Of a stretch of 44,111 nt of DNA, positions 1-44,111 are shown in pieces (position 1 is the stretch's first letter; every line of letters starts with the position of its first letter). The position numbers and the translations under genes were made by a program. Origin of the DNA: a phage; sequence record PZ379076.1; one strand, written 5' to 3'. The notes beneath the pieces are model-generated. The model made no database searches. It saw only the letters and a list, made by a program, of their open reading frames with translations, and was not told the origin of the DNA.

Positions 1-173
1 AGGCACTGCGTTCTGGTGACGTCACGACTCTGCGGGCTAAGCTGGCGCTGTTCATCAACCAGAACGGCAAACCGATACTTGGACTGCGTCGTCGTACCGC
101 CGGTCGTCTGGCGCTGTTCGACGGTAAACCGTGGCAGGAGGCTGAGGCTATCGGGCGCGCGGTGAAAGGTTGA
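1..173 (+). CDS. endolysin (lysozyme-like), C-terminal part; 5' end is at the window end (43796-44111)
   Basis: Open phase ends TGA 171-173; translation ...GKPILGLRRRTAGRLALFDGKPWQEAEAIG fits the C-terminal G-L-x-RR-x-E-x-LF pattern of phage lysozymes; frame is continuous with 43796-44111 across the junction. Confidence 0.6.
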   Translation, partial: ALRSGDVTTLRAKLALFINQNGKPILGLRRRTAGRLALFDGKPWQEAEAIGRAVKG

Positions 174-7046: not shown

Positions 7047-7507
7047 TGATGGGCTTTTTCAAAGTAACTGACGTACCGTCTCGTCGCGTAGTCCAGTACG
7101 CCCGCGTGTCTGGCTCTGGCGAGAACGTGGTATTTATTGAGGACGAAAGTGTACTCGGTACACCGGTAGATGATATGCCGTTTGCAGATAAAACCGGTAT
7201 TGCGTTGCCCGCCGCTGGTATGCTTTATGAAATTCCGTATCTGGCGGACGCTGGTGACGTGTATTTCTCTGTGCAACCGAAAGACACTGAACTTACAGAT
7301 GGCAGCGCAACTATCACTGTCGAAGTTAAGGCGGGTAAAGCACCGTATGCTCTGACCTGGTACAAAGACGGTAAGGAAGTGGTAAACGCCCCGGAAGAGG
7401 CCTTGTCTCTGACGGTTAATGCAGTTGGTGAATACTTCGTTAAAGTTACCGATGCCGGTGGCGTAGAGGCCGTCAGTAAAGCGGCGAAGGTCGCTAAACC
7501 AGAATGA
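7046..7507 (+). CDS. Ig-like domain protein (possible capsid decoration)
   Basis: 153 aa; ...ALTWYKDGKEV...VKVTDAGG segment resembles bacterial Ig-like domains. Confidence 0.55.
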   Translation: MMGFFKVTDVPSRRVVQYARVSGSGENVVFIEDESVLGTPVDDMPFADKTGIALPAAGMLYEIPYLADAGDVYFSVQPKDTELTDGSATITVEVKAGKAPYALTWYKDGKEVVNAPEEALSLTVNAVGEYFVKVTDAGGVEAVSKAAKVAKPE

Positions 7508-7510
7508 TAA

Positions 7511-7537
7511 AAGGCCCCATTAAGGGGCCTTAGTTTT
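7511..7537. terminator. bidirectional rho-independent terminator
   Basis: Stem aaggcccc (7511-7518) / ggggcctt (7524-7531); T-run follows on plus strand and A-run precedes it (T-run on minus). Confidence 0.75.
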
Positions 7538-7740
7538 CAACGGAATCTTGTGTTTAAATCCTGCTCGTGGACGACCCTCAGAACAGTGTCATAATCCCCG
7601 TATCTTCCAGGTTCAAATATATCTAATGCCCTGTAAGCAGACATTGCGTCAGGGAAAACCTGCAGAACCTTTTTAACACGGCACAAGTCACCGTCGAACT
7701 CTTCATCGAACTCTTGAACTACTTCGCAAATTGCATACAT
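7537..7740 (-). CDS. hypothetical protein (lone minus-strand gene in the head region)
   Basis: 67-aa ORF in track; AGGAGG SD 6 nt before ATG; own promoter upstream and terminator downstream. Confidence 0.6.
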   Translation of the reverse strand: MYAICEVVQEFDEEFDGDLCRVKKVLQVFPDAMSAYRALDIFEPGRYGDYDTVLRVVHEQDLNTRFR

Positions 7741-7767
7741 TTTTCACCTCCTGCTTAAGTTAACTGA

Positions 7768-7796
7768 ATAGTACCCTATTATATTGGGGTGTGCAA
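7768..7796 (-). promoter_or_regulatory. promoter, TTGCAC-N17-TACTAT family
   Basis: Minus strand reads TTGCAC (7796-7791), 17-nt spacer with AATAG-N4-CTATT palindrome, TACTAT (7773-7768). Confidence 0.5.
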
Positions 7797-7862
7797 ACTA
7801 TTTATTTAATTATTCCAGTTATTCCGCTCAATTGTAAATGTTGGAATAAACTATTCGAATAG

Positions 7863-7891
7863 TTGACTTTTCACTAAAAATATGATAAGCT
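7863..7891 (+). promoter_or_regulatory. promoter of conserved element copy 1
   Basis: TTGACT (7863-7868), 17-nt spacer, TAAGCT (7886-7891); same arrangement at 39678-39706. Confidence 0.45.
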
Positions 7892-8000
7892 CCACCTGAG
7901 CTTGTGAAGTATGAACAAGCGACCGCGGCGCGGGCAGGTAACGGAGCGGGACGTAAGTCCTGAGTGTAGTTACGCTGACGCGTTCGGAAGGGCCATACTC
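7886..8000 (+). repeat. conserved ~115-nt element, copy 1 (candidate structured RNA or leader)
   Basis: First 43 nt identical to 39701-39743, then matching with two offsetting 1-nt indels through ...TTCGGAAGGGCCATA(C/A)TCTATTG; GCTTGT/ACAAGC stem 7900-7920. Confidence 0.85.
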
Positions 8001-8070
8001 TATTGCTTGTGTAAAAAGTAACGGGTTTACTGAGATTACGCCGTTTCTATGTTTAAATGATAAGGACTAG

Positions 8071-8099
8071 CGCCCCGCTTTAAGGCGGGGCTTTACTTA
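8071..8099 (+). terminator. hairpin plus U-rich tract (terminator or attenuator) before Rz
   Basis: Stem gccccgc (8072-8078) / gcggggc (8085-8091), then TTTACTTA; Rz ATG at 8116. Confidence 0.4.
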
Positions 8100-8115
8100 T
8101 CGAGAAAGGAGAAAC

Positions 8116-8502
8116 ATGAATCTTAAAGCAACCGTCGTAGCAGGAGCATGTTTCATCATCCTGGCTTACACACACGGCATTTATCAGTACCGCAGCGGCT
8201 GGCACGAAGGCCGCGCTAATCTCGTTTCGCAGCAACAGCAAAAAGCACAGGCTGAGTTAGCTAAGAAAACACAACGGCAGCAGCAGGACGAATCTAAGGC
8301 CGCCGCCGCCGATTCCAAAGGCAAGACGAAATCAGAGGTGATTACCCGTGAAGTCGTTAAGTACATTAAAACGCCTGGTCGCAGCGGGTGCGCTTTTGAC
8401 CCTGAGCGCGTGCAGCTCAAGTCCCGCGCCGTCGCAAACGCTAATTCCATTACCGGATACGACGATGATGCAGCCTCCGTGCAAACTGGCAGCGCCAAGT
8501 AG
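8116..8502 (+). CDS. Rz-like inner-membrane spanin
   Basis: 128 aa; N-terminal hydrophobic helix, Q/K-rich coiled-coil-like middle, and an overlapping lipoprotein gene in another frame. Confidence 0.65.
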   Translation: MNLKATVVAGACFIILAYTHGIYQYRSGWHEGRANLVSQQQQKAQAELAKKTQRQQQDESKAAAADSKGKTKSEVITREVVKYIKTPGRSGCAFDPERVQLKSRAVANANSITGYDDDAASVQTGSAK

Positions 8503-8611
8503 CGATGCTGACGAGGATTTGGCTATAGACGTTCAGAACGCCGAATGCGTGCGGCAACTGCGTCTGAAAGTATTCCAGTTGCAGGATTATGTGAGGAATA
8601 TTCTGGAATAG
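8348..8611 (+). CDS. Rz1-like outer-membrane lipoprotein spanin
   Basis: GTG start with GAGGTGA SD; signal peptide with lipobox LSAC, proline-rich mature part; starts inside Rz in another frame and runs past its stop. Confidence 0.65.
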   Translation: MKSLSTLKRLVAAGALLTLSACSSSPAPSQTLIPLPDTTMMQPPCKLAAPSSDADEDLAIDVQNAECVRQLRLKVFQLQDYVRNILE

Positions 8612-8693
8612 TTGCCTTGCATGTTGGAATAATTTATTCTTGACATGTAAATCCGGGTGGCCCGGGTTCCAACGTCCAGGGGACATACTGACT

Positions 8694-9398
8694 ATGAATC
8701 GTTTTTTACGTTATCCGTTCCAGGAAGAAGCTGGGGCAGAAGATAAAGCTGGTGGCGGTGACGCTCCTAAAATGTTCACCGCTGAAGAAGTTCAGGCGCT
8801 GATTGAGAAAGAAGTTGCCGGGCTTAAGGCTAATCAGGAAGCATTGTTGGCGGAGAAGAAAGAAGCCGCTCGCAAAGCAAAAGAGGCCGAAGAAGAACGG
8901 CAGCGCGCGCACCAGGAGGCGTTAAAAGCCGCTGGTAAGATGGATGAGTTCGAAAAGACGATTCGTAGCCAGTATGACCCGGTGTTAGCCGAGAAAGACG
9001 GTCGCATCTCCAGAATGGCAGAGCGTATCCTCGGCAGCGAACGTAAAGCGGTGCTAGGCTCTTTCGCGGGTGACTTTATTACCCCAGAAGCAGTGGACAT
9101 TCTTGCGCCGTTCGTTAAGACTGAGTTCGAAGGCGATGATGTGGTTACTAAGTTTGTTGGCGCAGACGGCAACGTAATCACGACTGACCCGGAACAGTTC
9201 CGCAAATACTTGCGAGAACACAAAGCGTTTTCACATTTGATTAAAGCAAATGCAGCTTCCGGCGGCGGGGCTTCCGGTAGCAAAGGCGGCGGGGCCGCAC
9301 CAGCGTTTAAAGACATGAGTGAAGCGGAGCGTATCGCTCTGTACGAATCGAACCCTGCCGAATTTGAACGGCAACTTAAAGCCCTGAGGAAAAAATAA
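8694..9398 (+). CDS. scaffolding protein (putative)
   Basis: ATG 8694 inside track ORF 8640-9398; charged helical composition; immediately upstream of the capsid gene. Confidence 0.55.
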   Translation: MNRFLRYPFQEEAGAEDKAGGGDAPKMFTAEEVQALIEKEVAGLKANQEALLAEKKEAARKAKEAEEERQRAHQEALKAAGKMDEFEKTIRSQYDPVLAEKDGRISRMAERILGSERKAVLGSFAGDFITPEAVDILAPFVKTEFEGDDVVTKFVGADGNVITTDPEQFRKYLREHKAFSHLIKANAASGGGASGSKGGGAAPAFKDMSEAERIALYESNPAEFERQLKALRKK

Positions 9399-17279: not shown

Positions 17280-17321
17280 AACATAACTCCTGATTTGAGA
17301 TAACATCGTTGGTGTAAGTGA

Positions 17322-17350
17322 ATAGTACGCTATTATATCAGGGTGTGCAA
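17322..17350 (-). promoter_or_regulatory. promoter, TTGCAC-N17-TACTAT family (drives the minus-strand cassette)
   Basis: TTGCAC (17350-17345), 17-nt spacer with AATAG-N4-CTATT, TACTAT (17327-17322) on minus strand. Confidence 0.5.
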
Positions 17351-17457
17351 GTAGTATGTTAGAATAATTTTGCGCCTAGTGTCGCACACGAAAAGCGGGT
17401 GGTTCCCGTCTGGCGCATTTCCTTTAACCAGTAACCTCTTAACCAAAGGATTAAAGA

Positions 17458-17874
17458 ATGAAACTTTCTGATTTTTATTACGAAGCTGAAGCTGAAAAGG
17501 GTGCACGTATGCCGATACCATTAAAAGACGGTACCGATTCCGGGGAATGGCTTAATGTTGTTTCTCCTGAGGCAGACGTTGCCGTTAAGGCTATGCGCGC
17601 GTTCACCCTTGCATACCGGGCAGTGTTAGGGAAATTAAAACCGCTTCGTGATAAGTGCGAAGAGATGAAAGATTTCTCTGAATACAACCTGAAGATGGAA
17701 GACGCGGCGACGGACCTTAACCGTCAGTTAGCGGTTGAATTGGTTAACGGGTGGAGCCTTGACGACGAATTCAATAAAGAGAATCTGAACACACTCCTGA
17801 CGCAATATAAACGACTCGCGGAACTTGTTGTTGTGTTTCATAACGAACAACTGCACCAGCTACAGGAAAAGTAG
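17458..17874 (+). CDS. tail assembly chaperone (putative, G-like)
   Basis: 138 aa immediately upstream of the tape measure gene; AAAGGA SD. Confidence 0.5.
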   Translation: MKLSDFYYEAEAEKGARMPIPLKDGTDSGEWLNVVSPEADVAVKAMRAFTLAYRAVLGKLKPLRDKCEEMKDFSEYNLKMEDAATDLNRQLAVELVNGWSLDDEFNKENLNTLLTQYKRLAELVVVFHNEQLHQLQEK

Positions 17875-39180: not shown

Positions 39181-39391
39181 ACTTAACGCCCGCAATCCAC
39201 GCACGCTCCGAAGCGTAGAAACGACACTTACTTAAAGCCTCGATTGGCATCTTAATAATGCGTGTCGGTTCCAACAAATGATTAGGCTTACATATTTCCG
39301 CATAGAATCCGCTGTCAGTAATTTCCGACGCAAACTTAAACCAGTATTTAACTTTACAGTTTTCAAAGTAACAACCCATACGCCCAATCAT
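39179..39391 (-). CDS. hypothetical protein
   Basis: 70-aa ORF in track, ATGA-coupled to the upstream HTH gene. Confidence 0.5.
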   Translation of the reverse strand: MIGRMGCYFENCKVKYWFKFASEITDSGFYAEICKPNHLLEPTRIIKMPIEALSKCRFYASERAWIAGVK

Positions 39392-39570
39392 TTCACGTTC
39401 TCCTTAATCCATGCTTCAACTTTATTACGGTCAAATGTTCCTGGTAAACGGCGACCCATAACCTTAATACAGCAATCAGGGAATTTACCGCTGCGCAACC
39501 AGTTATTAATTGTTTGACGTGTCACCCCGATACGTTCAGCCACTTCATTCTGTGTCATGTAATGCTGCAT
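39388..39570 (-). CDS. AlpA / excisionase-like HTH DNA-binding protein
   Basis: ATG 39570 with AGGAGA SD inside track ORF 39388-39642; MTQNEVAERIGVTRQTINNWLRSGKFP ... VEAWI matches the AlpA-type pattern. Confidence 0.6.
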   Translation of the reverse strand: MQHYMTQNEVAERIGVTRQTINNWLRSGKFPDCCIKVMGRRLPGTFDRNKVEAWIKENVK

Positions 39571-39677: not shown

Positions 39678-39706
39678 TTGACTTTTACTAAGAAATGTGC
39701 TAAGCT
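39678..39706 (+). promoter_or_regulatory. promoter of conserved element copy 2
   Basis: TTGACT (39678-39683), 17-nt spacer, TAAGCT (39701-39706). Confidence 0.45.
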
Positions 39707-39815
39707 CCACCTGAGCTTGTGAAGTATGAACAAGCGACCGCGGTGCGGCAGGAAACGGAGCGGTGCGTCAGCACTGAGTGTAGTGTCGCTGCCTGCATTC
39801 GGAAGGGCCATAATC
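39701..39815 (+). repeat. conserved ~115-nt element, copy 2
   Basis: Matches 7886-8000; stem-loop GGUGC-gtca-GCACU at 39762-39775 replaces GGGAC-gtaa-GUCCU of copy 1. Confidence 0.85.
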
Positions 39816-39907
39816 TATTGTAAATCCCGTCTAAATAACCCAAGTCACTAATAATTAAAAGTTTCTATAGTTGCCGTAAGCAAGGTAGAGAGTACTTCAC
39901 TCCGCTG

Positions 39908-39986: not shown

Positions 39987-40015
39987 TTGCACACCCCAAC
40001 ATAATAGGATACTAT
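39987..40015 (+). promoter_or_regulatory. promoter, TTGCAC-N17-TACTAT family
   Basis: TTGCAC (39987-39992), 17-nt spacer with AATAG-N4-CTATT, TACTAT (40010-40015); acgagacagaggag leader before ATG. Confidence 0.5.
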
Positions 40016-40043
40016 TCACTTATCGGAACGAGACAGAGGAGTG

Positions 40044-43244: not shown

Positions 43245-43553
43245 TTGGATAAATTTACTGAAACAGTGACGGGGTGGCTTCTCGCTGCCGCACTGGTCGG
43301 TGGATTGGTCGGACTAAGACAACATAAAAAGTCTATATCCGGGCCGATTGACGGACTGGTATTTCTTCTCACCGGCTTCGCGTGCGCCATTTTCGGCGCA
43401 CCTCTTGCCGCTCAATGGTTTGGTATTACTGGCGAGCGCGAGATAGCTGGCCTCGGATTCATCATTGCCATTCTCTGGATGCCAATTTATTCCCGTCTCT
43501 CTGGCATTGTCGCCGGAGAATACATCGCACGTCGCGGAGGTGGTAATGAATGA
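43245..43553 (+). CDS. holin-like membrane protein (three predicted TM helices)
   Basis: 102 aa, TTG start; three hydrophobic helices and charged C-terminus; two genes upstream of the lysozyme. Confidence 0.55.
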   Translation: MDKFTETVTGWLLAAALVGGLVGLRQHKKSISGPIDGLVFLLTGFACAIFGAPLAAQWFGITGEREIAGLGFIIAILWMPIYSRLSGIVAGEYIARRGGGNE

Positions 43554-43818
43554 GTTATTCTGGTTTGGTGGTATGCTCGCAATCGGGAGCACATCGCTGT
43601 TTAACGTATACCACCCCAGCGTAGATGATGGCCTGTTCGGGCGTGTGCTTTATATTCTGACTGCTATTGTCTGCGCCGCCGGATGTATCCACCTGTTACA
43701 GGGCAGCATGTCACCTACGTTGCCTGAGACATTAATCACTTTAGTTGCGCTGCGCCAGATTCGTCAGGCGTGGCTGTCGTACGGAGGACATAAGCGTGTC
43801 TCGAAACATTTCAGATAA
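43546..43818 (+). CDS. second small membrane protein of the lysis cassette (holin/antiholin candidate)
   Basis: ATG 43546 inside track ORF 43465-43818; two hydrophobic helices; overlaps neighbours. Confidence 0.45.
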   Translation: MNELFWFGGMLAIGSTSLFNVYHPSVDDGLFGRVLYILTAIVCAAGCIHLLQGSMSPTLPETLITLVALRQIRQAWLSYGGHKRVSKHFR

Positions 43819-44111
43819 TGGGTTGCATTTCACCGCAGCGTTTGAGGGGTTCCGCGGAACTGCGTATCGTGCTACGCCAAATGAGAAGTACCTGACTATT
43901 GGGTACGGTCATTATGGGCCAGACGTAACGCCAGGCAAGACCATCACCCCGGGACAAGGCCTCCTGTTACTGAATCGTGATATGGCTAAGGCCGTAGCTG
44001 CGGTTGACGCAGCAGCACACCATTCATTGACACAGGCACAGTTCGACGCAGTGTGCGACCTGGTGTATAACGCGGGTGCCGGTGTGATTGCGGCTACTAC
44101 TGGCACAGGTA
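43796..44111 (+). CDS. endolysin (lysozyme-like), N-terminal part; 3' end at window positions 1-173
   Basis: GTG 43796 with GGAGGA SD; translation ...AAFEGFRGTAYRATPNEKYLTIGYGHYG... resembles the catalytic E...TIGYGH region of phage lysozymes; runs off the window end in frame with 1-173. Confidence 0.7.
   Translation, partial: MSRNISDNGLHFTAAFEGFRGTAYRATPNEKYLTIGYGHYGPDVTPGKTITPGQGLLLLNRDMAKAVAAVDAAAHHSLTQAQFDAVCDLVYNAGAGVIAATTGTG

What the first reader, a model, noticed from the sequence alone, without database searches (positions are those of the whole stretch)
8116..8611. Overlapped Rz/Rz1-type spanin pair located in the head region, away from holin and endolysin
An i-spanin-like ORF (N-terminal TM helix, helical periplasmic part) contains in another frame a lipoprotein ORF with lipobox LSAC and proline-rich body that extends beyond the Rz stop. 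The pair sits between the head morphogenesis genes and the scaffold gene, ~8.8 kb from the holin/endolysin genes across the junction, behind conserved-element copy 1, suggesting separate regulation of spanins.
Basis: partly seen in the sequence, partly recalled or inferred. Interest (0 to 1): 0.5.

Follow-up and report, generated by a model that had tools for sequence, protein, structure and literature searches.

The report
Known overlapped spanin pair, Kagunavirus phage
This is the ordinary, already catalogued "spanin" gene pair (two overlapping genes that break the outer membrane at the end of infection) of a Kagunavirus-type E. coli phage, and it sits among the head genes, far from the holin and endolysin, as it does in all of this phage's relatives.

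Summary
8116-8502 encodes a 128-aa inner-membrane protein with an N-terminal hydrophobic helix. 8348-8611, in the +1 frame, encodes an 87-aa lipoprotein precursor (lipobox LSAC, Cys22) that overlaps it by 155 nt and runs 109 nt past its stop. Both frames are under purifying selection in 32 distinct relatives. The lipoprotein ORF is kept in all 48 loci examined and is the only credible lipoprotein ORF in the genome.

The window is a circularly permuted complete Kagunavirus genome. The two holins and the endolysin lie 7.9-9.0 kb away across the junction.

None of this is new. The pair belongs to the "Jersey" family of overlapped spanins described by Kongari et al. 2018, with the same 155-bp overlap and the same invariant Cys45 and Cys67. 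Close relatives annotate the pair as i-/o-spanin, and the fBC-Eco01 paper notes its separation from the other lysis genes. The head-module position is shared by Jerseyvirus, Cornellvirus and Dhillonvirus.

One new lead came up in passing. The 224 nt between the 7863 promoter-like site and the spanin start form a conserved structured RNA, supported by covariation, with no Rfam match. It is annotated in relatives as a 36-aa ORF and has a paralogue at 39707-39818.

The parts
8116..8502 (+). i-spanin gene: 128 aa, N-terminal transmembrane helix about residues 5-23, periplasmic helical domain, invariant periplasmic Cys92.
   Evidence: ORF and translation. phrog_2536 'Rz-like spanin', E 1.2e-54. Hydropathy. 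AlphaFold2 helix 3-67. Cys92 invariant across Kaguna-, Jersey-, Cornell- and Dhillonvirus homologues. pN/pS 0.16. The Snoke orthologue is annotated i-spanin with a TMHMM transmembrane domain.
8348..8611 (+). o-spanin gene: 87-aa prolipoprotein in the +1 frame with a GTG start. Signal peptide 1-21, lipobox LSAC, Cys22, Pro-rich linker, C-terminal helix 54-86, invariant Cys45 and Cys67.
   Evidence: phrog_1267, E 9.6e-19. Lipobox Cys and Cys45/Cys67 conserved in 33 family members. pN/pS 0.07 beyond the i-spanin stop. AlphaFold2 model. The Snoke orthologue is annotated o-spanin, 'Contains Lipobox motif'.
8335..8341 (+). Shine-Dalgarno sequence GAGGTGA for the o-spanin GTG start, lying inside the i-spanin gene.
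   Evidence: Sequence. The ATG at 8465 used by many database annotations has no Shine-Dalgarno sequence and yields a protein without a signal peptide.
7863..7891 (+). Sigma-70-like promoter TTGACT-17 nt-TAAGCT with TG at the extended -10 position. It is duplicated at 39678-39706.
   Evidence: Sequence. Conserved in Kagunavirus and Jerseyvirus alignments. Not mapped experimentally.
7892..8115 (+). Conserved 224-nt leader of the spanin genes. The structured 5' domain 7892-8003 has hairpin P0 (7900-7920) and a long hairpin (7923-7987) with a GUAA loop and a conserved internal loop. Hairpin 8072-8091 lies just before the spanin ribosome-binding site.
   Evidence: Alignments. Covariance-model alignment: 96-97% of cells paired against 30-38% with slid partners, and 11-14 of 29 pairs with changes on both sides. 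The 3' hairpin covaries. No Rfam match.
7811..7862 (.). Cluster of GGAATA/TATTCC sites, including the palindrome GAATAAACTATTC at 7844-7856, upstream of the 7863 promoter. Candidate regulator-binding sites.
   Evidence: five sites within 60 nt; 0 of 300 shuffles reach this.
8571..8640 (.). Second and only other GGAATA/TATTCC cluster, including the palindrome GAATAATTTATTC at 8627-8639. It overlaps the last o-spanin codons and precedes the scaffold gene (8694-9398).
   Evidence: Highly conserved between Kagunavirus and Jerseyvirus.
43245..43818 (+). Two holin genes, 43245-43553 and 43546-43818: the first part of the distant lysis cassette.
   Evidence: phrog_2359 E 9e-31 and phrog_2508 E 3e-33. 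Annotated as holins in relatives.
43796..44111 (+). Endolysin gene, 5' part. The 162-aa lysozyme continues at 1-173 across the window junction.
   Evidence: phrog_33703 E 2e-47 and phrog_7 E 1e-39.
1..173 (+). Endolysin gene, 3' part.
39678..39818 (+). Paralogue of the spanin leader: the same promoter (39678-39706) and the same structured RNA domain (39707-39818), at the start of the long plus-strand gene block that holds the holins and endolysin.
   Evidence: Sequence. Covariance-model hits of 122 bits (R1) and 108.5 bits (R2).

Best explanation
8116-8611 encodes the two-component spanin of a Kagunavirus (Guernseyvirinae) phage, a member of the 'Jersey' family of overlapped spanins.

Shown here by sequence: an inner-membrane protein with an N-terminal membrane anchor and a helical periplasmic domain carrying one invariant Cys; and, from an internal GTG in the +1 frame, an outer-membrane-type prolipoprotein with two invariant periplasmic Cys. 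Both are under purifying selection. This is the only such pair in the genome.

Inferred from established work on lambda Rz/Rz1 (Young laboratory; summarised in Kongari et al. 2018, PMC6139136): the two proteins bind through their C-terminal periplasmic parts and form disulfide-linked homodimers. The resulting complex spans the periplasm and is held inactive by the intact peptidoglycan mesh. After the holins (43245-43818) release the endolysin (43796-173) and the wall is degraded, the complex disrupts the outer membrane, probably by fusing it with the inner membrane.

Because a spanin is harmless until the wall is gone, its gene need not be timed with the holin. That would explain why the pair can sit in the head module.

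Transcription (inferred, not shown): the genes are reached only through the 224-nt structured leader that starts at the 7863 promoter-like site. GGAATA site clusters bracket the module and also precede the scaffold gene, so the pair is probably expressed with the head genes.
For: ORFs, frames, Shine-Dalgarno sequences, lipobox and hydropathy. PHROG spanin families: phrog_2536 E 1e-54 and phrog_1267 E 1e-18. Both reading frames are selected: pN/pS 0.16 and 0.07, against 1.5-2.8 in wrong-frame controls. The +1 lipoprotein ORF is kept in all 48 sequences examined, the window plus 47 related loci, and tblastn covers at least 80% of it in 661 phage records. The lipobox Cys, Cys45 and Cys67 of the o-spanin and Cys92 of the i-spanin are conserved. 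AlphaFold2 secondary structure agrees. It is the only lipoprotein candidate in the genome. Holins and endolysin are identified elsewhere in the genome. Close relatives annotate the pair as spanins; in Snoke the coordinates and features are the same. Kongari et al. 2018 list K1G, K1H and K1ind1-3 in the Jersey overlapped family, with a 155-bp overlap and constant Cys45/Cys67. A distant homologue in Enterobacter phage Mulvp2 lies next to a lysozyme gene, which links the family to lysis.
Against: I found no experimental test of any Jersey-family spanin, so the function is predicted. There is no Pfam match to lambda Rz or Rz1; only sub-threshold hits to DUF2514 and LPAM_1. The hydropathy of the membrane segment is borderline (1.59), and the C-terminal half of the i-spanin model is low confidence. 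SignalP, LipoP and TMHMM could not be run here. The position in the head module is unusual for lysis genes.
Confidence: 0.9

Rival explanations
1. The pair is a membrane protein plus lipoprotein with a non-lysis role suggested by its position, for example superinfection exclusion (like the T5 Llp or Cor lipoproteins) or a head-assembly accessory. On this reading the phage disrupts the outer membrane another way.
For: It lies in the head module, 8 kb from the holins and endolysin. There is no Pfam hit to Rz or Rz1. I found no experimental data for this family.
Against: The full set of spanin features is present: overlapping +1 genes, a type II membrane protein with a helical periplasmic domain, a lipoprotein with Ser at +2, and conserved periplasmic Cys in both proteins. 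There is no other spanin candidate in the genome. A distant homologue sits beside a lysozyme gene. T4 is a precedent for spanin genes unlinked to the holin and endolysin genes.
Confidence: 0.05
2. The long +1 ORF is not the real product. Only the 48-aa ORF from ATG 8465 is made, as many GenBank records and metagenome gene calls annotate, or nothing is made in that frame at all.
For: Bas72, SETP13, fBC-Eco01 and dozens of metagenome gene calls give the 48-aa version, and phrog_5672 is built on it.
Against: The 48-aa form has no Shine-Dalgarno sequence and no signal peptide. The GTG at 8348 has GAGGTGA 6 nt upstream. The open frame, the start position and the lipobox Cys are kept in all 48 sequences examined, some of which have an ATG at that position. 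The expert annotation of Snoke uses the long form. Kongari et al. warn that wrong start codons hide spanin signal sequences.
Confidence: 0.03
3. On regulation: the 7863 promoter makes a free-standing small RNA of about 200 nt that ends at the 8072-8091 hairpin. It has nothing to do with the spanins, which are then transcribed only by leak-through or by long late transcripts from upstream.
For: There is a hairpin plus U-rich tail at 8072-8100. The same promoter and RNA domain occur at 39678-39818, where no spanin follows and a strong hairpin closes the unit.
Against: There is no room for another promoter between the hairpin and the spanin ribosome-binding site. A bidirectional terminator-like hairpin at 7511-7531 and a minus-strand gene lie upstream. 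The U-tract is weak here (UUUACUUAU) and absent in the Jerseyvirus versions, although the hairpin still covaries there. The RNA is linked to the spanin genes in all but one of the 47 related loci that include enough upstream sequence; the exception is Cornellvirus L005, where the covariance model finds nothing.
Confidence: 0.3

Closest known systems
'Jersey' family of overlapped two-component spanins (Kongari et al. 2018, BMC Bioinformatics 19:326; members include Jersey, SETP3, K1G, K1H, K1ind1-3, SSL-2009a and SO-1)
   Same: Same sequence family: 92% identity to the K1H o-spanin, plus phrog_2536 and phrog_1267. Same 155-nt overlap, same constant Cys45 and Cys67, and an i-spanin of 128 aa. 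Same position between the head-morphogenesis and scaffold genes in Jersey-, Cornell- and Dhillonvirus.
   Different: Nothing of substance. This copy has Gly where most relatives have an extra Cys at signal-peptide position 14.
Lambda Rz/Rz1 (prototype i-spanin/o-spanin)
   Same: Same components: a type II inner-membrane protein with a helical periplasmic domain and a small outer-membrane lipoprotein encoded in the +1 frame of the same DNA. Both have periplasmic Cys. The presumed mechanism is also the same.
   Different: There is no detectable sequence homology. Rz1 is fully embedded in Rz, whereas this o-spanin gene runs 109 nt past the stop. Per Kongari et al., Rz1 lacks predicted secondary structure; this o-spanin has a confident 33-residue C-terminal helix. 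The lambda genes lie in the S-R-Rz/Rz1 cassette; these lie in the head module.
T4 PseT.3/PseT.2 spanins
   Same: [quoted passage not shown]
   Different: The T4 genes are of the separated architecture and belong to an unrelated sequence family.
FSL_SP-031 / Cornellvirus spanins (separated members of the Jersey family)
   Same: Homologous proteins in the same head-module position (L005; Logan contig L134).
   Different: Only 8 nt of overlap, against 155 nt here. The N-termini of the o-spanins are not alignable (Kongari et al.).
HK022 putL/putR antiterminator RNAs. This is only a functional analogy, and it concerns the leader RNA noticed in passing.
   Same: Two paralogous structured RNAs of two stem-loops, each directly downstream of an early-type sigma-70 promoter and upstream of a terminator-like hairpin and a long operon.
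   Different: No sequence or structural homology was shown, and the element is longer (about 110 nt against about 70 nt). Antitermination was not tested. Many Kagunaviruses lack the second copy.

Membership tests
Two-component spanin (functional class) | i-spanin: integral inner-membrane protein with a single N-terminal transmembrane domain and a largely helical periplasmic domain | tested here: met
   The hydrophobic segment 5-23 scores Kyte-Doolittle 1.59, which is borderline. AlphaFold2 gives a helix over 3-67. The hydrophobic N-terminus is conserved in homologues. The 86%-identical Snoke orthologue is annotated with a TMHMM transmembrane domain, N-in/C-out. TMHMM itself could not be run.
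Two-component spanin (functional class) | o-spanin: outer-membrane lipoprotein with a signal peptidase II signal, a lipobox and a Cys, and without Asp at +2 | tested here: met
   MKSLSTLKRLVAAGALLTLSAC matches a PS51257-style pattern, and the +2 residue is Ser. The Cys is conserved in 33 of 33 family members. Pfam LPAM_1 gives only 14.6 bits, below the 20-bit cut-off. LipoP and SignalP could not be run.
Two-component spanin (functional class) | The two genes are adjacent in an embedded, overlapped or separated arrangement | tested here: met
   Overlapped: +1 frame, 155 nt shared, 109 nt beyond the i-spanin stop.
Two-component spanin (functional class) | Periplasmic cysteines available for intermolecular disulfide bonds | tested here: met
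   i-spanin Cys92 is invariant. o-spanin Cys45 and Cys67 are invariant, as reported for the family. Disulfide formation itself is not testable here.
Two-component spanin (functional class) | Required for outer-membrane disruption; complements lambda Rz/Rz1 | not testable with these tools
   This needs genetics. I found no published test for this family.
'Jersey' spanin sequence family (Kongari et al. 2018) | Sequence homology of both proteins to Jersey, K1G, K1H and related spanins | tested here: met
   o-spanin: 92% identity to the K1H 'Rz-like spanin'. i-spanin: 61-72% identity to Jerseyvirus homologues and 37% to SSL-2009a. Full-length match to phrog_2536.
Lambda Rz (Pfam Phage_lysis) and Rz1 (Pfam Rz1) sequence families | A significant match to the family profiles | tested here: not met
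   No hit at E <= 1 to either family. Only DUF2514 (14.4 bits, cut-off 26) and LPAM_1 appear, both below cut-off. The pair works like Rz/Rz1 but is not a sequence-family member.
Canonical lysis cassette (holin-endolysin-spanin) | Spanin genes contiguous with the holin and endolysin genes | tested here: not met
   The spanin start is 7,943 nt from the endolysin stop. This is not a defining feature of spanins (T4 precedent).

The most novel reading that the evidence does not exclude
The 224-nt leader between the 7863 promoter-like site and the i-spanin start, with its paralogue at 39707-39818, would be an undescribed family of structured phage RNAs that acts in cis on the transcripts it heads. 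It could work as a put-like RNA that lets RNA polymerase read through the hairpin or terminator in front of the spanin-head operon and in front of the early/lysis operon. Alternatively it could work as a switch that masks the i-spanin ribosome-binding site: RNAalifold pairs 7896-7910 with 8095-8109. Under either reading the spanins of Guernseyvirinae would be under RNA-based control that no other spanin is known to have. The RNA structure itself is well supported. The cis-regulatory role is pure inference.
Probability: 0.2. Interest if true: 0.6.

Novelty: already known. Interest (0 to 1): 0.15.

Why it matters
For the spanin pair itself there is little at stake. It confirms that this genome has a complete lysis system of two holins, an endolysin and a two-component spanin. 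It also shows that the correct o-spanin start is GTG 8348, not the ATG at 8465 that many database records use; that truncated form has even seeded a PHROG family. This is useful for annotation and for engineering Kagunaviruses, which are being proposed as synthetic-biology chassis.

The unlinked, head-module position is a family trait shared by at least four genera. It fits the idea that spanins need no tight timing because the intact cell wall holds them in check.

The more interesting lead is the conserved structured RNA in front of the spanin genes. If it controls read-through or translation, it would be a new example of RNA-based control of phage late or lysis genes.

Tried and rejected
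- Pfam search for Rz, Rz1 or any lysis family gave nothing above cut-off.
- Rfam, at gathering thresholds on the whole window and at E <= 5 on 7500-8800, gave no family for the leader.
- The 36-aa ORF 7911-8021, annotated as a hypothetical protein in Bas72 and Snoke, was rejected as coding. Its ATG is deleted in the Jerseyvirus versions, 1-nt indels occur in L011, L021, L028 and L029, and the region covaries as RNA.
- I considered that the HTH protein at 39388-39570 is an AlpA-type antiterminator, which would tie in the int-alpA hit. Pfam gives only the generic HTH_17/HTH_3 families and not Phage_AlpA, so this was not pursued.
- RNAalifold on the plain MAFFT alignment mis-registered the Kaguna and Jersey types and missed most of the long hairpin. 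This was solved with a covariance-model alignment.
- The covariance models did not detect the Cornellvirus leader (L005) or anything in Dhillonvirus (L003).
- The exact register of the promoter around ATGTTGGAATAA could not be settled by eye. Several extended -10 readings are possible, and the consensus scan found no plus-strand promoter there.
- A Logan contig of exactly 44,111 bp carrying a 47%-identical o-spanin (P0075) was checked. It is a different, Cornellvirus-like phage, so the equal length is a coincidence.
- The exact-pattern scan of viral contigs for GCRTTCGGAAGGGCC returned many chance hits. Only Guernseyvirinae-like contigs were confirmed by the model.

Full report
**What the window is**

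The spanin region (7700-8900) matches 233 phage records, nearly all Escherichia or Salmonella phages of the Kagunavirus/Jerseyvirus group. The best match is Escherichia phage Bas72 at 96.8%. An endolysin ORF runs off the end of the window and continues at its start. The window is therefore a circularly permuted complete genome of 44,111 bp.

Gene order follows Bas72:
- terminase, portal, head morphogenesis and a Hoc-like protein;
- a short minus-strand insert;
- the region in question;
- scaffold, major capsid protein, connector and tail genes;
- a minus-strand replication block;
- a plus-strand block of small genes that contains two holins and the endolysin and leads back to the terminase.

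**Checking the observation**

Both ORFs exist at the stated coordinates.

The 128-aa product of 8116-8502 has its most hydrophobic stretch at residues 5-23. It has a good Shine-Dalgarno sequence and Cys at positions 12 and 92.

The 87-aa product of 8348-8611 starts at a GTG, with GAGGTGA 6 nt upstream. It reads MKSLSTLKRLVAAGALLTLSAC|SSSPAPS..., which is a basic n-region, a hydrophobic core, the lipobox LSAC and Ser at +2. The mature protein has 66 residues.

The genes share 155 nt in a +1 relationship, and the second runs 109 nt past the stop of the first.

AlphaFold2 gives a continuous helix over residues 3-67 of the first protein, with a low-confidence C-terminal half. For the second it gives a signal-peptide helix, an unstructured Pro-rich linker and a confident C-terminal helix at 54-86. 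'Proline-rich body' is therefore true only of the N-terminal linker: 7 Pro in the first 29 mature residues.

**Is the +1 ORF real?**

Forty-seven related loci were fetched from IMG/VR. In 32 distinct Kagunavirus sequences that align without gaps:
- the i-only part evolves with pN/pS 0.16 in the i-frame;
- the o-only part evolves with pN/pS 0.07 in the o-frame, with variation concentrated at o-frame third positions;
- the overlap shows intermediate values, 0.41 in the i-frame and 0.84 in the o-frame;
- wrong-frame controls give 1.5-2.8.

All 48 sequences (the window plus 47 loci) keep an open +1 frame with a start at the same place, a signal peptide and the Cys. tblastn covers at least 80% of the 87-aa protein in 661 phage records.

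A genome-wide scan for lipoprotein-like ORFs finds no other credible candidate.

**What it is**

The proteins match PHROG families labelled Rz-like spanin: phrog_2536 at E 1e-54 and phrog_1267 at E 1e-18. They do not match the Pfam families of lambda Rz or Rz1.

In family alignments the lipobox Cys and two further Cys of the o-spanin (45 and 67) are invariant or nearly so. So is Cys92 of the i-spanin.

Kongari et al. 2018 (PMC6139136) define a 'Jersey' family of overlapped spanins that lists K1G, K1H, K1ind1-3, SETP3, SSL-2009a, SO-1 and others. They state that the Jersey genes overlap by 155 bp and that Cys45 and Cys67 are constant. These are the same values I obtained.

The expert annotation of Kagunavirus Snoke marks the orthologous genes as i-spanin (TMHMM transmembrane domain, N-in/C-out) and o-spanin (lipobox), with the same starts. 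The fBC-Eco01 genome paper (PMC9825357) notes that Gp11 and Gp12 form the spanin while the holins and endolysin lie near the other end of the genome.

**Position**

The holins (phrog_2359, phrog_2508) are at 43245-43553 and 43546-43818. The endolysin is at 43796-44111 plus 1-173. The spanin start lies 8,982 nt from the first holin start and 7,943 nt from the endolysin stop.

The spanins occupy the same head-module slot, after the head-morphogenesis and decoration genes and before the scaffold, in several groups:
- Jerseyvirus SETP13;
- Cornellvirus PhiSTP1, where the overlap is only 8 nt, and a Logan contig of the same kind;
- Dhillonvirus SSL-2009a, where they follow the head-morphogenesis gene directly.

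A distant homologue in Enterobacter phage Mulvp2 lies next to a lysozyme gene. The unlinked position is therefore an old family trait. T4 is a textbook precedent for spanins unlinked to the holin and endolysin.

**How it most likely works**

This part is inferred by analogy with lambda Rz/Rz1. It is not tested for this family. The two proteins are exported to the inner and outer membranes and bind through their periplasmic C-terminal parts. They form disulfide-linked dimers, and the resulting complexes are trapped in the peptidoglycan mesh. Once the holins let the endolysin reach the wall, the freed complexes disrupt the outer membrane. Because the complex is inert until then, there is no need for it to be timed with the holin. 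That makes the head-module position tolerable.

**Regulatory context**

Upstream of the spanins lie, in order:
- a bidirectional terminator-like hairpin at 7511-7531;
- a minus-strand 67-aa ORF;
- a promoter-like TTGACT-17-TAAGCT at 7863-7891 with TG at the extended -10 position.

The 224 nt from there to the spanin ATG are more conserved than the coding DNA around them. Phages whose i-spanin is only about 72% identical to this one still have a nearly identical leader.

The 36-aa ORF annotated here in relatives is not conserved. Its ATG is missing in the Jerseyvirus versions, and single-base indels occur in several loci.

The region folds into a short hairpin (7900-7920) and a 65-nt hairpin (7923-7987) with a GUAA loop and a conserved internal loop. 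I built covariance models and used them to align the variants:
- On 15 distinct sequences, 96.2% of cells pair, against 30-37% when partners are slid, and 14 of 29 pairs have changes on both sides, against 0-3.
- On 23 distinct sequences, 96.6% of cells pair, against 30-38%, and 11 pairs have changes on both sides, against 0-3.
- These alignments are fitted to the model, which inflates the figures somewhat. The compensatory changes are nonetheless visible in the raw alignments.

A hairpin at 8072-8091 also covaries. Its U-tract is weak here and absent in the Jerseyvirus versions, so it may not be a true terminator.

Rfam has no match.

The same promoter and RNA domain recur at 39678-39818. That copy sits at the head of the long plus-strand block and is closed by a strong hairpin. 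This second copy is present in only some Kagunaviruses.

GGAATA/TATTCC sites cluster at only two places in the genome, 7811-7862 and 8571-8640. These bracket the leader-spanin module, and the second precedes the scaffold gene.

Taken together, the spanins do seem to have their own entry point for transcription. The shared site clusters, however, point to co-regulation with the head genes. Nothing here has been mapped experimentally.

**Verdict**

The feature is an already described member of a known spanin family in its usual place, so interest is low.

Two practical by-products came out of the check:
- Many database records truncate the o-spanin to 48 aa, starting at ATG 8465. phrog_5672 is built on that form.
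- The structured leader RNA is, as far as Rfam and my literature searches show, undescribed and worth a separate look.

Noticed in passing
window 7892-8115 (5' domain 7892-8003); paralogue 39707-39818: A conserved structured RNA follows a TTGACT-17-TAAGCT promoter-like site. It has two hairpins, a GUAA loop and a conserved internal loop (GGAG opposite AGUGUA), with strong covariation: 96-97% of cells paired against 30-38% for slid controls. Rfam has no match. One copy is the leader of the spanin genes and the other heads the early plus-strand block. The function is unknown; candidates are a cis-acting antiterminator, a translational switch or a small RNA.
   Followed up: yes
window 7911-8021 (and 39726-39851): A 36-aa ORF is annotated as a hypothetical protein in Bas72 and Snoke. 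Together with its 41-aa look-alike at 39726-39851, it lies inside the structured RNA and is not conserved as coding: the ATG is deleted in the Jerseyvirus versions and there are frameshifting indels in several loci. It is probably a mis-annotation.
   Followed up: yes
window 8465-8611: Many GenBank records and metagenome gene calls start the o-spanin at ATG 8465. This gives a 48-aa protein with no signal peptide and no Shine-Dalgarno sequence, and phrog_5672 (47 positions) is built on this truncated form. The correct start is GTG 8348.
   Followed up: yes
window 7811-7862 and 8571-8640: These are the only two clusters of GGAATA/TATTCC sites in the genome (five sites within 60 nt; 0 of 300 shuffles reach this). 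Each contains a perfect palindrome GAATA-N3-TATTC (7844-7856 and 8627-8639). They bracket the leader-spanin module. The second overlaps the last o-spanin codons (RNILE*) and precedes the scaffold gene. They are candidate binding sites for an unidentified regulator.
   Followed up: partly
window 17356-17433: Rfam int-alpA RNA (RF02996) matches 17369-17433 at 36.6 bits, just above the 35.8-bit gathering score. It lies just after ATGTTAGAATAA, which reads as an extended -10 (TGnTAGAAT), and just before the tail assembly chaperone gene at 17458.
   Followed up: partly
window 39987-40019 (+); inverted copies at 7766-7796 and 17320-17350: A promoter-like element of about 31 bp (TTGCAC-17-TACTAT) occurs three times. 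One copy faces the early plus-strand genes. The other two face the minus-strand inserts that interrupt the head and tail modules (7537-7740, and 14880 to about 17280). This suggests that those inserts carry their own early-type promoter.
   Followed up: partly
L041 1501-2090 (IMGVR_UViG_3300045988_013393): A Kagunavirus-like contig has a mosaic spanin pair. The i-spanin N-terminal two-thirds are like this window, but its C-terminus and the o-spanin N-terminus are of the Cornellvirus-like type, which leaves only a 14-nt overlap. Recombination inside the spanin genes has switched the architecture.
   Followed up: partly
L021 1276-1388 compared with window 39707-39818: In one relative, the leader copy upstream of the spanins carries the P2/P3 variants typical of the second (39.7 kb) paralogue. 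This suggests gene conversion between the two RNA copies.
   Followed up: no
window 8387-8389 (o-spanin residue 14): Most Kagunavirus relatives have a second Cys inside the signal peptide (LVAAC ALLTLSAC). This genome has Gly there. It probably has no consequence, because that residue is removed with the signal peptide.
   Followed up: no
L054 25250-25340 (Bas72) and L005 2290-2330 (PhiSTP1): Kagunaviruses that lack the second RNA copy have a different leader at the same early-region position, behind the motif TTGACAC(A/G)T(G/T)TTTGTATAATG. The same motif precedes the spanin leader of Cornellvirus PhiSTP1.
   Followed up: no
L134 (Logan SRR22560160_557): A public contig of exactly 44,111 bp, the same length as this window, encodes a 47%-identical o-spanin. 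It is a different, Cornellvirus-like phage, so the equal length is a coincidence.
   Followed up: yes
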